DNA of 64,000 nucleotides, from the NCBI RefSeq assembly GCF_030013205.1, contig NZ_CP122648.1. The stretch is one strand, 5' to 3'. This document shows positions 35,601 to 38,600 of the stretch, in pieces (within the stretch, counting starts at the first letter, position 1; each line of letters begins with the position of its first letter). Made by a program: the position numbers. This stretch comes from Escherichia coli (GTDB lineage Bacteria; Pseudomonadota; Gammaproteobacteria; Enterobacterales; Enterobacteriaceae).

Positions 35601-38600
35601 CAGGATAATTCAGCCAGCGATAATTCCCGTTCCTGCGTGCCATTCATTGCATGGCGTATGACGTCAATCATCCATGCAGACAGGTTTTGGTGAGCAAGTT
35701 GCCCGAGTGATTCGGAGGTCTGGTCGCGCAGCTGGTTGTCGCAGTGCCAGCACAACACCATTGCGCCGGTACCATAACGGTGAATGACGGTTTCACTGTG
35801 GTGATAATCGCCGTGTGGCCACTGGCAGGATTTAACATGGCGCAGTAACCAGTCAGACAATGCGCCAGCGCCACCAGCAGCACGAATCACTCGTTTGTCG
35901 CTGAAAAATGGCAGTAATGATTTATCCTCCGCCAGCGGCTGGCGAACGGCAGGAACGACCCCGGACGGCAGATTACGCATGCTTTTCGGTTCCGGCTCCA
36001 CCAGTACCCGGGTATTGTGGAATACCGGCATGGATTCACGGCCCGGCTTAACGATCACCAGCCCGAGTTCCGGTACCAGAACAGGTCGAAGTAATACCCG
36101 CACGTTACCTCCAGATGCGTTGCTGGAATGTGCGGGACGGACGCGGTGGGCGTTCGGAGTAAGGAAGCCTGACGGAGATTATCCAGTGACGGTAGTCGAG
36201 GCTAAGGGCTTTTTTAACCTCGCATCCGCGCCTGCGGTAACACTGAATCAGCCATTCAGCCTGTTCTTCAGTACATGGGGGATGCTGGTACCAATCAGAT
36301 TTAAATGCGTGAGAGCGCCGCCCGTGCCTGCTGGCAAAGACGGCTGAATTATCAGAATTGTGTAGTCTGGAATTTTGCGCCATCGGCTTTCTCCGGTGGC
36401 ACAGTGTTACTCAACAGGGGTTCAGCCCTGCGCTGAATTGTAGATGAATTCACTCATCTTCAAAAGCAGAAAAACCAGCCTTAATCCCAGCTTCTTTCAG
36501 AGACGGCAACGATGTGACAAATTCATTTGCACGCAAAATAAAACCATCCGTCACAAGCCCATCCACAAAATGAATTAACGCAGCTCCACTCTTCCTTTGT
36601 TGAGACTGTAAACATTTAATACGGCAGTGGCTGACAATAGCGCCATTCTCAACGCGCACAGTATAGAGGCCATCTTCACTAAAAATTTCACGTAATTCTT
36701 CGATTTTCATCAGCAGAATCCTTCTGGATAAATAACTTTCCCCTGTTTGGGGTCCATCCCTCTTCTCCCTGCGCGCTAACTAAGTAATATGATTCTATTT
36801 ACCCCTAACGGCCCCTCAAGAACCACAACCAACGGAGTACACAAAAAGCTAATCAACTACGCTACGCAATAAAAAACCCGCCGAAGCGGGTTAAGTGCGG
36901 GTGCGTTGAGGATGCCTGACACATCAGAGGTGGCGAGGGATTTCTCCCCCGCCAGGTCTCTTACTCCTCAGGTTCGTAAGCTGTGAAGACAGCGACCTCC
37001 GTCTGGCCGGTTCGGATTCGTACCTCGCAGAGGTCTTTCCTCGTTACCAGTGCCGTCACAATGACGGTTAAACAGATGACGATCAGGGCGATTAACATCG
37101 CCTTTTGCTGCTTCATAGCCTGCTTCTCCTGTGTAAGTTCACAGAGATATTGCAATTACCTCCGGATAAGTAAGGGGAGATTGCACTATGCAAATGCAGC
37201 ATCTGATGGTTGGCTATCCTAAGTACTACCAAACGGCCGATTATGCGTTGAGGCTTTCAGTGATGGCTGATACAGCAACAATGAGAATGAAGGCTCTGCA
37301 CTTCTGGGATAAACACGGTATTTCTGCAGCTTCTGAAGCCTTTGGCGTGTCCTGCCGCACGCTTTACTGGTGGCGTCAGTTACTGAACAAGGGAGGACCT
37401 GAGGGGCTAATCCCGCACAGTAAGGCACCTCTGGTGCGACGAAAAAAGCACTGGCATCCCGATGTGCTGAAAGAGATTCGACGGCTGCGAACAGAGCTGC
37501 CGAACCTCGGTAAAGAGCAGATTTTTGTTCGCCTGAAGCCCTGGTGCGAACAGCGCTATCTGGCCTGTCCAAGTGTTTCCACCATTGGCAGAATGATCGC
37601 TGCCGCACACGATAAAATGCGAATGATACCTGTGCGTCTGGGCTCGCGGGGGAAGGCACTGCTTGTCAAAAAGCGGTCTGCCAAACCCCGCAGACCAAAG
37701 CACTACCGCCCGGTAAAGACAGGTGAGCTCATTGGGATGGACGCCATTGAGCTCAGAATGGGCGAACTGCGTCGCTATGTCATCACCATGATCGACGAAT
37801 GCAGCAATTACGCGCTGGCGCTGGCTGTACCGTCGCTCAACAGTGATATCGTCAATCACTTCTTCAGCCGTGCAGCCCGGCTGTTCCCGGTCGGTATCAG
37901 CCAGATAATCACAGATAACGGAAAAGAGTTCCTGGGAAACTTCGACAAAACGCTGCAGGAAGCCGCTATCAAACACCTCTGGACCTATCCCTACACACCC
38001 AAAATGAACGCTATCTGTGAACGTTTTAACCGGACGTTAAGAGAGCAGTTTATTGAATTTAATGAGATTTTACTCTTTGAAGATCTGGCGCTATTTAATC
38101 AGAAGCTGGGGGAATATCTGGTGCTGTATAACAGCAAAAGGCCCCATAAGGCGCTCGCACTAATGACGCCCGTGGAATATATTTTAAGAGAGAACAAAAA
38201 TTGCAATATGTGGTGGACCCATACATCTCCTTGCCTTTCGGCACGTAAGAGGCTAACCTAGATTTGCCGTTCATAGATTGAGCCTCAGATTAATGTTAAG
38301 CGTCTTGCAGGACGCGTAATGTTAACTGGGGCTTTTCTCTATCTGCCTTTTGGTGTTCATGCCTGAGGCAGATAGCCTCAAGCACCCGCAGCAATTCTAC
38401 TTAACTCCCGTCACCTCGCCAATATAAAATCAATCAGAAAGGCGATCCATAAGAACAATAGCAAGACAATAAATTGCCACTACAGCCGCAATAGCCAGCG
38501 CGCATTTGAGAACCAGCACGATAACCTCCTGTATTGGACGTACACCAGCTCTGATAAATATGAGGCTGCCTCTTTAACTTCGCATTGCGCTACCAATCAA

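What the first reader, a model, noticed from the sequence alone, without database searches (positions are those of the whole stretch)
36871..38261. hokD-like type I toxin with its upstream regulatory region abutted by a transposase gene
A 51-codon Hok-family toxin ORF and a downstream intrinsic terminator are intact, but the region where mok and the sok antisense promoter would lie (about 37117-37300) runs straight into a DDE transposase ORF on the opposite strand. Chromosomal hok loci in E. coli are often inactivated by IS insertions; here the toxin may be deregulated or silenced.
Basis: partly seen in the sequence, partly recalled or inferred. Interest (0 to 1): 0.5.

Follow-up and report, generated by a model that had tools for sequence, protein, structure and literature searches.

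The report
Insertion sequence splits a hok/sok toxin locus
A 1.1-kb mobile element has landed inside a prophage hok/sok toxin-antitoxin locus, cutting the intact toxin gene off from its promoter and regulatory leader; this kind of event is known, but this element family turns out to land repeatedly at this exact spot, just upstream of promoters.

Summary
A 51-codon HokD toxin ORF (36961-37116, minus strand), its fbi element and its terminator are intact.

A 1096-bp IS481-family insertion sequence (37130-38225) is related to ISKpn28. It lies inside the hok/sok locus and is flanked by a 5-bp target duplication, TCTCC, which is the hok Shine-Dalgarno on the hok strand.

The "missing" half survives beyond the element at 38226-38422: hok promoter, tac, mok start and sok (Rfam sok, 109 bits). 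Deleting the element and one TCTCC copy in silico restores a contiguous 416-nt hok mRNA. Its junction is identical to uninterrupted alleles found in about 3,900 E. coli genomes, and its 5' end pairs with its 3' fbi element.

hok is therefore most likely silenced, which I infer rather than show, while sok probably stays active. This is a new member of a known kind: an IS-inactivated chromosomal hok locus.

One lead emerged in passing. This IS lineage sits in a single orientation with its right end exactly 5 bp upstream of a -35-like TTG, usually followed by a -10-like hexamer. The sites include several Hok families, AgrB, the ryfA locus, STnc100, sthA, manA and metN. I found no published account of this.

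The parts
36869..36892 (-). hok mRNA intrinsic terminator (hairpin 36875-36892 plus T-run)
   Evidence: Terminator scan. It forms the last hairpin in the fold of the reconstructed mRNA.
36899..36911 (-). fbi (fold-back inhibition) element, CCUCAACGCACCC
   Evidence: Pairs with nt 1-12 of the reconstructed hok mRNA in the MFE fold. The role is assigned by analogy with R1 hok (PMC9841398).
36961..37116 (-). hokD-type Hok toxin ORF, 51 aa, intact
   Evidence: Pfam HOK_GEF, E=1.3e-23. RefSeq names it hokD, WP_000813254.1.
37125..37129 (.). Left copy of the 5-bp target-site duplication TCTCC. On the hok strand it reads GGAGA, the hok Shine-Dalgarno.
   Evidence: Uninterrupted alleles carry a single copy in ...AAGGCAAGGAGAAGCAGGCTATG.
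37130..38225 (+). IS481-family insertion sequence, 1096 bp, of the ISKpn28 group. IRL is TGTGTAAGTT...ATTGCAAT; IRR is ATTGCAAT...GGACCCATACA.
   Evidence: BLAST matches in other contexts end exactly at bases 1 and 1096. It is 76% identical at the nucleotide level and 79-80% at the amino-acid level to ISKpn28. There is one copy in the window.
37188..38261 (+). Transposase ORF, 357 aa. The last 12 codons are encoded by hok/sok DNA because the IS contains no stop codon; the stop overlaps the predicted sok -10.
   Evidence: The variable C-terminal tails of homologues show that the open end is a family trait.
37674..37697 (-). Terminator-like hairpin inside the IS on the hok strand. It could stop read-through from the hok promoter.
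   Evidence: Consensus scan only. The number of such sites is no greater than in shuffled sequence, so this is weak evidence.
38095..38274 (-). mok start (ATG at 38274), now fused to antisense IS sequence. The resulting 59-aa ORF ends 130 nt inside the IS.
   Evidence: In the reconstructed locus this ATG lies 57 nt upstream of the hok ATG and in the same frame.
38226..38230 (.). Right copy of the target-site duplication TCTCC
38231..38259 (+). Predicted sok promoter: -35 TTGCCT (38231-38236), 17-bp spacer, -10 TAACCT (38254-38259)
   Evidence: Read directly from the sequence. Its position next to the hok SD/dcb region agrees with R1, where the sok-promoter mutation lies in dcb (PMC9841398). 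It falls below the threshold of the scan tool.
38266..38340 (+). Predicted Sok antisense RNA, with a long terminal hairpin followed by a U-rich tail
   Evidence: Fold of -33.3 kcal/mol. It lies within the Rfam sok match. The ends are not mapped.
38220..38387 (-). hok mRNA 5' leader, the region of the Rfam 'sok' family: tac (38376-38387), mok SD (38283-38286) and the Sok target
   Evidence: Rfam RF01794, 109 bits against a gathering score of 59. The last ~6 nt of the match (38220-38225) are IS sequence aligned spuriously.
38394..38422 (-). hok promoter: TTGGCG, 17-bp spacer, TAGAAT. The predicted start is at about 38387.
   Evidence: Promoter scan. The start coincides with position 1 of the Rfam model.

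Best explanation

**Where it inserted.** The element entered at the hok Shine-Dalgarno, which is also 5 bp upstream of the sok -35 box. It duplicated TCTCC.
- One half (36869-37129) keeps the SD, the hok ORF, fbi and the terminator.
- The other half (38226-38422) keeps the hok promoter, tac, the mok SD and start, the Sok target and the sok gene.

**Inferred consequences for hok.**
- hok has lost its promoter and its coupling to mok translation, which R1 hok needs in order to be translated (PMC9841398). The toxin gene is therefore intact but silent.
- Transcripts from the hok promoter now run antisense into the transposase gene.

**Inferred consequences for sok and the transposase.**
- sok probably remains expressed from its own core promoter.
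- Transposase transcripts run through the sok promoter into sok.

The structure is shown by the sequence. The expression states are inferred.
For: **The element and its boundaries**
- IS ends and TSD are defined.
- The same 1096 bp occurs in unrelated contexts (gsp, galF-yegH, ColV plasmids), and the matches end exactly at the IS termini.

**The locus is whole once the IS is removed**
- The in-silico empty site is contiguous in about 3,926 E. coli genomes at 97.6-99.1% identity. The junction is identical in L005 and L006.
- Rfam sok scores 109 bits on the far side of the IS.
- The reconstructed 416-nt mRNA folds with nt 1-12 paired to nt 376-388, followed by the terminator.
- The hok promoter is found, and Hok matches Pfam.

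**Indications of silencing**
- No promoter-like site was found anywhere in the IS on the hok strand.
- The mok ORF now stops at 38095.
- The hok SD and AUG are predicted to be paired in IS-derived leaders.
- The split allele is present in 54 complete genomes.
Against: - No transcript or protein data exist for this allele.
- The promoter scan is a crude consensus search and could miss a weak outward promoter.
- Read-through from the hok promoter across the IS cannot be excluded. The internal terminator-like hairpin is a weak call.
- The duplicated GGAGA leaves hok with a Shine-Dalgarno, so low-level translation from any transcript is conceivable.
- The NCBIfam IS481 score (219.9 bits) falls just below the curated cut-off (224).
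Confidence: 0.85

Rival explanations
1. The toxin is deregulated rather than silenced. hok is transcribed from inside the IS or by read-through, and because it lacks the Sok target and the tac/mok control it is expressed at a low or conditional level.
For: hok keeps an SD (the TSD copy), an intact ORF, fbi and a terminator. The ORF is conserved in all 54 carrier genomes listed as hokD.
Against: - No outward promoter-like site was found.
- The SD and AUG are predicted to be paired.
- An unregulated Hok would be expected to be counter-selected, yet the allele is carried in 54 complete genomes, including different prophage backgrounds.
Confidence: 0.12
2. The insertion here is not a random hit. 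This IS lineage has an oriented target preference for the position 5 bp upstream of a sigma-70 -35 hexamer. Constitutive antitoxin-sRNA promoters such as sok are therefore recurrent landing sites, and hok/sok loci are split at the same nucleotide again and again. This extends the best explanation rather than competing with it.
For: **TTG at a fixed offset**
- I collected 47 non-redundant right flanks from IMG/VR and metagenomes. TTG occupies +6..+8 in 18 of the 42 non-hok site clusters. At every other offset it occurs at most once.

**A -10 signal downstream**
- In the 47 flanks, column counts are A at +30 in 27, T at +34 in 25 and G at +27 in 27.
- Among non-hok TTG sites, TAnnnT at a 16-18 nt spacing occurs in 7 of 18, against 3.6% at control TTG sites (p=1.7e-6).

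**Strict orientation**
- Of 22 sites with an intact 5-bp TSD, 19 have TTG on the right-end side and none has the mirror-image CAA on the left.

**Support from protein data (sources overlap with the above)**
- 38 of 82 distinct transposase C-terminal tails imply TG at +7/+8, against about 6% expected.
- Of ten sites chosen only because the transposase tail is 2 residues long, seven readable sites are N5+TTGA with exact TSDs, each followed by a -10-like hexamer. One is a contig end in another hok locus and two are not TTG.

**Known genes downstream**
- Predicted promoters precede AgrB (the Rfam match starts 7 nt after the -10), STnc100 and Sok. They also precede sthA, manA and metN. One insertion lies beside ryfA.

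**Recurrence in hok loci**
- Six Hok families are hit at the same relative position by IS variants only 76% identical to each other.
Against: - Natural insertion sites have already been filtered by selection. A simple 'N5-TTG' sequence preference combined with tolerance of promoter-upstream sites could mimic promoter targeting.
- About half of the distinct contexts are not TTG. ISKpn28 has been found inside mgrB at +91 (PMC6101004).
- The controls were all TTG sites, not intergenic TTG sites.
- The samples overlap in source and some sites are homologous.
- The mechanism is unknown.
Confidence: 0.6
3. The arrangement is ancestral, or a rearrangement of the K-12 hokD type (a truncated hok without mok/sok), rather than a simple insertion.
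For: From memory of Pedersen & Gerdes 1999, which I did not check here, K-12 hokD lacks its upstream region.
Against: A perfect 5-bp TSD, an intact far half with an Rfam sok match, and an exact empty site in thousands of genomes.
Confidence: 0.02

Closest known systems
Chromosomal hok loci of E. coli K-12 disrupted by IS elements (hokC/gef with IS186; hokA with IS150; hokE with IS186)
   Same: A Hok-family gene with an intact ORF whose post-transcriptional control is broken by an IS lying next to, not inside, the reading frame. For hokC, IS186 lies downstream and disrupts fbi (PMC3562002). The hokA and hokE cases are from memory of Pedersen & Gerdes 1999.
   Different: Here the IS belongs to the IS481 family and lies upstream, exactly between the leader and the ORF at the hok SD. 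Both halves remain intact, so promoter, mok and sok are separated from hok rather than fbi being separated.
hok/sok (parB) of plasmid R1
   Same: The reconstructed locus has the same parts in the same order: promoter, tac, mok SD and start, Sok target, sok on the opposite strand, hok SD, hok, fbi and terminator. It also has a 5'-3' tac/fbi pairing (PMC9841398).
   Different: - The toxin is HokD-type (51 aa) and prophage-borne.
- The mok ATG is 57 nt upstream of the hok ATG, so it is in frame. In R1 the published coordinates give 58 nt.
- The locus is split by an IS.
ISKpn28 (IS481 family) of Klebsiella plasmids
   Same: - Same length (1096 bp) and same terminal sequences, with a 5-bp TSD.
- The transposase ORF is open at the right end in both.
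- It is found at the identical position, with TSD TCTCC, in R1-like hok loci in 1,353 PLSDB records.
- 'ISKpn28 upstream of hokG' has been noted in IncHI5 plasmids (PMC6339943), and ISKpn28 has been noted next to FlmC (PMC12248084).
   Different: The window's element is only 76% identical at the nucleotide level and 79-80% at the amino-acid level. It is an E. coli lineage, annotated generically as an IS481 family transposase.
hokW-sokW of Stx2 prophage Sp5 (E. coli O157 Sakai)
   Same: A hok/sok locus carried in the early region of a Shiga-toxin prophage (PMC8621323). The window is an Stx2e prophage.
   Different: hokW-sokW is reported to be functional, whereas this locus is interrupted.

Membership tests
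Hok/Gef toxin family | A small (~50 aa) protein matching the Hok/Gef profile | tested here: met
   Pfam PF01848 E=1.3e-23, model positions 1-42 of 42. The generic NCBIfam Hok models match below their cut-offs (48.5 bits against 73). RefSeq names the identical protein HokD.
hok/sok type I TA locus | A conserved hok mRNA leader and sok region on the toxin strand, upstream of hok | tested here: met
   Rfam RF01794 scores 109 bits against a gathering score of 59 at 38220-38387 (minus strand), but this lies 1.1 kb from hok because of the IS.
hok/sok type I TA locus | Long-range 5' tac / 3' fbi pairing in the full-length mRNA | tested here: met
   Met only in the reconstructed mRNA with the IS removed: nt 1-12 pair with nt 376-388.
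hok/sok type I TA locus | A contiguous transcription unit in which mok translation reaches the hok SD | tested here: not met
   The mok ORF now ends at 38095 inside the IS, and the hok ATG is at 37116. The locus is a disrupted member.
hok/sok type I TA locus | Sok RNA is expressed and represses hok; the locus mediates post-segregational killing | not testable with these tools
   This needs RNA and phenotype data.
IS481 family insertion sequence | A single DDE (rve) transposase with an N-terminal HTH that matches the IS481 profile | tested here: inconclusive
   NCBIfam NF033577 scores 219.9 bits against a cut-off of 224, far above the IS3 (97 bits) and IS30 models. Pfam finds rve, rve_3, HTH_32, HTH_28 and HTH_23. 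RefSeq calls it an IS481 family transposase.
IS481 family insertion sequence | Terminal inverted repeats and a short target-site duplication, with copies in unrelated contexts | tested here: met
   Imperfect IRs of about 28 bp beginning TGT and ending ACA, a 5-bp TSD, and the same 1096 bp in many contexts.
ISKpn28 isoform | High nucleotide identity to ISKpn28. From memory, ISfinder treats isoforms as at least about 95% identical. | tested here: not met
   76% nucleotide identity. It is a related but distinct element.

The most novel reading that the evidence does not exclude
The ISKpn28 group of IS481-family elements seeks promoters. It integrates in one orientation at about -40/-36 relative to transcription starts, exactly 5 bp upstream of the -35 TTG. 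The guide could be a transposase contact with a -35-like sequence or promoter-bound RNA polymerase.

Strong constitutive antitoxin-sRNA promoters (Sok, AgrB, the ryfA partner) would then be hot spots, and type I toxin-antitoxin loci would be disarmed recurrently at one nucleotide.

This would be a bacterial counterpart of the promoter- or Pol III-directed integration of yeast Tf1 and Ty3 (comparison from memory).
Probability: 0.5. Interest if true: 0.75.

Novelty: new member of a known kind. Interest (0 to 1): 0.45.

Why it matters
**For this window.** The finding explains an apparently orphan toxin gene. The hok/sok system of this Stx2e prophage is physically intact but split, so it should not be counted as a working addiction or defence module. 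Annotation that lists only 'hokD' next to a transposase hides this.

**More broadly.**
- The same element family splits hok loci on more than a thousand Klebsiella plasmids at the same nucleotide. That bears on how often plasmid 'addiction' modules are really functional.
- If the oriented -35-proximal insertion preference is mechanistic, it would be a rare case of promoter-directed transposition in bacteria. It would also be a natural tool for mapping or tagging promoters.

Tried and rejected
- **Species-representative genomes.** A scan for the IS right end found only two irrelevant MAG contigs, so it gave no target-site data.
- **isrK/rsmX hits.** Weak Rfam hits at the hok 3' end (30.5 and 21.9 bits, both below gathering) are resemblances to the terminator hairpin, not genes.
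- **Outward promoter.** I looked for a promoter facing out of the IS left end that could drive hok. None appeared in the scan or by eye. TTGCAA in the IRL has no -10 at 16-18 bp.
- **Ancient single insertion.** I considered that the shared hok::IS junction reflects one old insertion that co-diverged with hok. This is unlikely. The IS is 97.5-99.3% identical among loci whose sok-side flank is only 71-97% identical. Copies 93-98% identical sit in unrelated sites.
- **Palindromic target.** A symmetric CAA-N5-TTG target is rejected: 0 of 22 sites have CAA on the left.
- **Selection for a stop codon.** I considered that TTG merely reflects selection for a stop codon (TGA) to close the open transposase ORF. 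This does not account for the T at +6, for the frequent TTGC sites, or for the scarcity of TAA/TAG.
- **Neighbouring small ORFs.** NCBIfam and PADLOC gave nothing for the 29-aa and 86-aa neighbouring ORFs.
- **Literature.** Searches found only descriptive mentions of ISKpn28 near hok or FlmC, and nothing on target preference.
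Full report
**1. What is in the sequence**

On the minus strand, 36961-37116 encodes a 51-aa protein, MKQQKAMLIALIVICLTVIVTALVTRKDLCEVRIRTGQTEVAVFTAYEPEE.
- It matches Pfam Hok/Gef over the whole model (E=1.3e-23).
- RefSeq annotates the identical protein as HokD in identical DNA from porcine E. coli.
- A G+C-rich hairpin with a T-run lies at 36875-36892.

On the plus strand, an ORF from 37188 to 38261 encodes a 357-aa transposase.
- Pfam finds rve, rve_3 and HTH domains.
- The best NCBIfam match is IS481, at 219.9 bits, just under the 224-bit cut-off.

**2. The transposase belongs to a discrete insertion sequence inside the locus**

- The left end reads ...ctgcttctcc|TGTGTAAGTTCACAGAGATATTGCAATT.
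- The right end reads AATTGCAATATGTGGTGGACCCATACA|tctccttgcc.
- These are imperfect inverted repeats flanked by a direct repeat, TCTCC, at 37125-37129 and 38226-38230.
- The interval 37130-38225 (1096 bp) recurs in 1,741 of 5,426 complete E. coli genomes and on many plasmids.
- The matches begin and end exactly at bases 1 and 1096 in unrelated contexts: the gsp locus, galF-yegH, and the iss-iro region of ColV plasmids.
- There is one copy in the window, and one in the matching genome K_EC180.

**3. The 'missing' regulatory half lies on the far side of the IS**

- An Rfam scan gives the sok family (RF01794) at 38220-38387 on the minus strand: 109 bits against a gathering score of 59, E=7e-25 (repeated).
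- A promoter-like site, TTGGCG-17-TAGAAT, lies at 38422-38394 on the minus strand. It places the start at about 38387, which is position 1 of the Rfam model.

I removed 37130-38225 and one TCTCC copy in silico.
- The result is contiguous in about 3,926 E. coli genomes at 97.6-99.1% identity.
- Two uninterrupted alleles, L005 and L006, have the same junction...AAGGCAAGGAGAAGCAGGCTATGAAG.
- The duplicated TCTCC is GGAGA on the hok strand, which is the hok Shine-Dalgarno.

The reconstructed 416-nt mRNA folds (MFE -173.9 kcal/mol) with nt 1-12 (GGGUGCUUGAGG, tac) paired to nt 376-388 (CCUCAACGCACCC, fbi; window 36899-36911). The terminator hairpin follows. This is the long-range closure described for R1 hok mRNA (PMC9841398).

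On the plus strand, right after the right-hand TCTCC, lie TTGCCT (38231-38236), 17 bp, then TAACCT (38254-38259).
- A 75-nt region follows that folds into a long hairpin with a U-rich tail.
- I read these as the sok promoter and Sok RNA.
- In R1 the sok-promoter mutation lies in the dcb box next to the hok SD, which is consistent with this placement.
- The ends of Sok are not mapped here.

**4. Consequences (inferred)**

- The hok promoter, tac, the mok SD and start (ATG at 38274), the Sok target and sok are now 1.1 kb from hok.
- mok is fused to antisense IS sequence and stops at 38095.
- In R1, mok translation up to the hok SD is mandatory for Hok synthesis (PMC9841398). That coupling is broken here.
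- No promoter-like site was found anywhere in the IS on the hok strand.
- A terminator-like hairpin lies on the hok strand inside the IS at 37674-37697, but this is a weak call.
- In RNAs entering from the IS, the hok SD and AUG are still predicted to be mostly paired.
- The split allele occurs in 54 complete genomes.

I conclude that hok is most probably silent and sok is probably still transcribed. Two side effects follow from the geometry:
- The transposase ORF has no stop codon in the IS. It ends at 38259-38261, within the predicted sok -10, so transposase transcripts read into sok.
- Transcripts from the hok promoter run antisense across the transposase gene.

None of this has been tested by expression data.

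**5. Context**

- The DNA is identical to an Stx2e prophage of porcine E. coli.
- The hok locus lies between a SIR2-family gene and a DUF977 gene on one side and DUF968-RusA-Q on the other.
- stx2e lies about 5 kb away, and the terminase gene is truncated.
- Uninterrupted hokD loci occupy the same position in other lambdoid prophages.

**6. Comparison with what is known**

- IS disruption of chromosomal hok loci is established. In K-12, IS186 lies downstream of hokC and breaks fbi (PMC3562002). The hokA/IS150 and hokE/IS186 cases are from my memory of Pedersen & Gerdes 1999.
- The present case is of that kind, but the IS family and the position differ.
- The closest named element is ISKpn28, at 76% nucleotide identity and 79-80% amino-acid identity.
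- ISKpn28 sits at the same position, with the same TCTCC duplication, in an R1-like hok locus (L004). At least 80% of that hok::ISKpn28 query is matched in 1,353 PLSDB plasmid records.
- The literature mentions 'ISKpn28 upstream of hokG' (PMC6339943) and ISKpn28 next to FlmC (PMC12248084), without interpretation.

**7. A lead that emerged: oriented insertion just upstream of -35 elements**

I collected right-end flanks from IMG/VR and from a metagenome scan for the 21-nt IS terminus. This gave 47 non-redundant flanks.

*TTG at a fixed offset.*
- Columns +6, +7 and +8, immediately after the 5-bp duplication, are T, T and G in 34, 33 and 32 of the 47 flanks.
- Among the 42 clusters without the hok-type motif, TTG sits at +6 in 18. 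At every other offset it occurs at most once.

*A second signal 17 bp further on.*
- Column counts are G at +27 in 27 of 47, T at +29 in 22, A at +30 in 27 and T at +34 in 25.
- This is the shape of a sigma-70 -10 box with part of an extended -10.
- Among non-hok TTG sites, TAnnnT at a 16-18 bp spacing occurs in 7 of 18, against 3.6% at control TTG sites (p=1.7e-6).
- A match of at least 4 of 6 to TATAAT occurs in 13 of 18, against 11.5% in controls.

*Strict orientation.*
- Of 22 sites with an intact 5-bp duplication, 19 have TTG on the right-end side. None has the mirror-image CAA on the left.

*Partly independent protein data.*
- Because the ORF is open-ended, homologues carry context-dependent C-terminal tails.
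- Of 82 distinct tails, 17 stop at the third codon and 21 have Cys or Trp there. Together that is 46%, against roughly 6% expected for TGN.

*Ten look-ups chosen only because the tail is 2 residues long.* Seven gave readable sites of the form N5+TTGA, each with an exact duplication and a -10-like hexamer:

| Locus | TSD | -35, spacing, -10 |
|---|---|---|
| L154 | GCTGT | TTGAAT-17-TATAAT |
| L156 | TTCGC | TTGACA-17-GAGTAT |
| L157 | TTCAT | TTGAAA-17-TAATAT |
| L159 | AAACT | TTGACC-18-TACAAT |
| L161 | AAGTA | TTGAAA-17-TAAATT |
| L162 | CGCTT | TTGACG-17-TATATA |
| L165 | TCAGA | TTGATT-17-TAACAT |

Of the other three, L166 is a contig end in another hok locus, and L163 and L164 are not TTG.

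*Real genes downstream.*
- An AgrB sRNA match begins 7 nt after the predicted -10, with a DinQ-family toxin gene on the other side of the IS (L154).
- STnc100 follows the promoter in L018 and L019, and Sok in L159.
- One insertion lies beside ryfA (L156).
- The housekeeping genes sthA, manA and metN follow others.
- Six Hok families are hit at the equivalent position: HokD, R1-like, two MKLPRN-type, MSQKS-type and SrnB-like.

**8. Caveats on the lead**

- These are natural sites, already filtered by selection.
- About half of the distinct contexts lack TTG.
- My control was all TTG sites, not intergenic ones.
- The data sources overlap.
- Orientation bias is hard to explain by host-level selection, which favours a mechanistic preference.
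- I cannot tell whether the determinant is a short DNA motif or promoter-bound polymerase.
- I found no paper describing this, but ISfinder and subscription journals were not searchable.

**9. Verdict**

It is an IS-split, probably silenced, hok/sok locus, which makes it a new member of a known kind. The target-site pattern of the IS lineage is the more interesting by-product and deserves an experiment.

Noticed in passing
window 38211-38261; loci L009-L166: The right end of this IS lineage lies exactly 5 bp (the TSD) upstream of a -35-like TTG, usually with a -10-like hexamer 17 bp further on, and always in one orientation. Sites include Sok, AgrB and STnc100 sRNA promoters, the ryfA locus, and the sthA, manA and metN promoters.
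   Followed up: yes
window 37188-38261: The transposase ORF has no stop codon inside the IS, so its C-terminus is encoded by whatever flanks the right end. At TTGA targets the protein ends after two extra residues (348 aa). Here it runs 12 codons into the sok promoter. The protein databases hold dozens of such context-specific tails and long read-through fusions.
   Followed up: partly
window 38274 (mok ATG) and 37116 (hok ATG), reconstructed locus; L005, L006: In hokD-type loci the mok ATG is 57 nt upstream of the hok ATG and in the same frame, so 'Mok' would be a 70-aa N-terminally extended Hok. In R1 the published coordinates (mok start codon at 116-118, with T117/G118 mutated; hok start codon ending at G176) give 58 nt, which is out of frame.
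   Followed up: partly
L154 (E. coli GCA_900448265.1), L156, L159: The same IS also splits or abuts other type I toxin-antitoxin loci: a DinQ-family toxin with an AgrB-like sRNA, the ryfA locus between sseB and a rhodanese gene, and an SrnB-like hok. This suggests that type I antitoxin promoters in general are favoured or tolerated sites.
   Followed up: partly
window 38590-39621 (-): A 343-aa SIR2-family gene lies directly upstream of the hok promoter. It has only weak PADLOC matches (Aga_SIR2 and PDC-S21, E about 1e-5 to 1e-6). It is a possible prophage-borne defence moron. Other prophages carry different genes at this position (L005, L006).
   Followed up: partly
window 38430-38519 (-): A 29-aa strongly hydrophobic ORF (MLVLKCALAIAAVVAIYCLAIVLMDRLSD) ends just before the hok promoter. 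The 3' end of this ORF is also present upstream of uninterrupted hokD alleles (L005, L006). It matches no family.
   Followed up: no
window about 29000-33000 (by correspondence with L153): The window is an Stx2e-converting prophage of porcine E. coli. stx2eA/B and a tRNA cluster lie about 5 kb from the hok locus, and the terminase small-subunit gene is annotated as truncated, so the prophage may be defective.
   Followed up: no
window 36970-36985 (hok codon Tyr47, GCT TAC GAA): The Tyr47 codon of hokD sits in a UACG context. A preprint (10.1101/2025.08.07.668861) states that hokC, hokD and hokE mRNAs undergo TadA A-to-I editing that recodes this position to Cys. I did not examine this here.
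   Followed up: no
window 3777-3979, 17952-18045, 26701-26886: Other Rfam matches above gathering score: STnc180 sRNA, the trp operon leader, and an adjacent isrK plus C4 antisense RNA pair (typical of a P1/P7-type immunity region). They are unrelated to the finding.
   Followed up: no
proteins P0001-P0003, P0010; locus L164: Some Klebsiella records show ISKpn28 transposase ORFs running into a second, internal part of the same transposase, or an IS end abutting another copy's end. These are nested or tandem copies.
   Followed up: no
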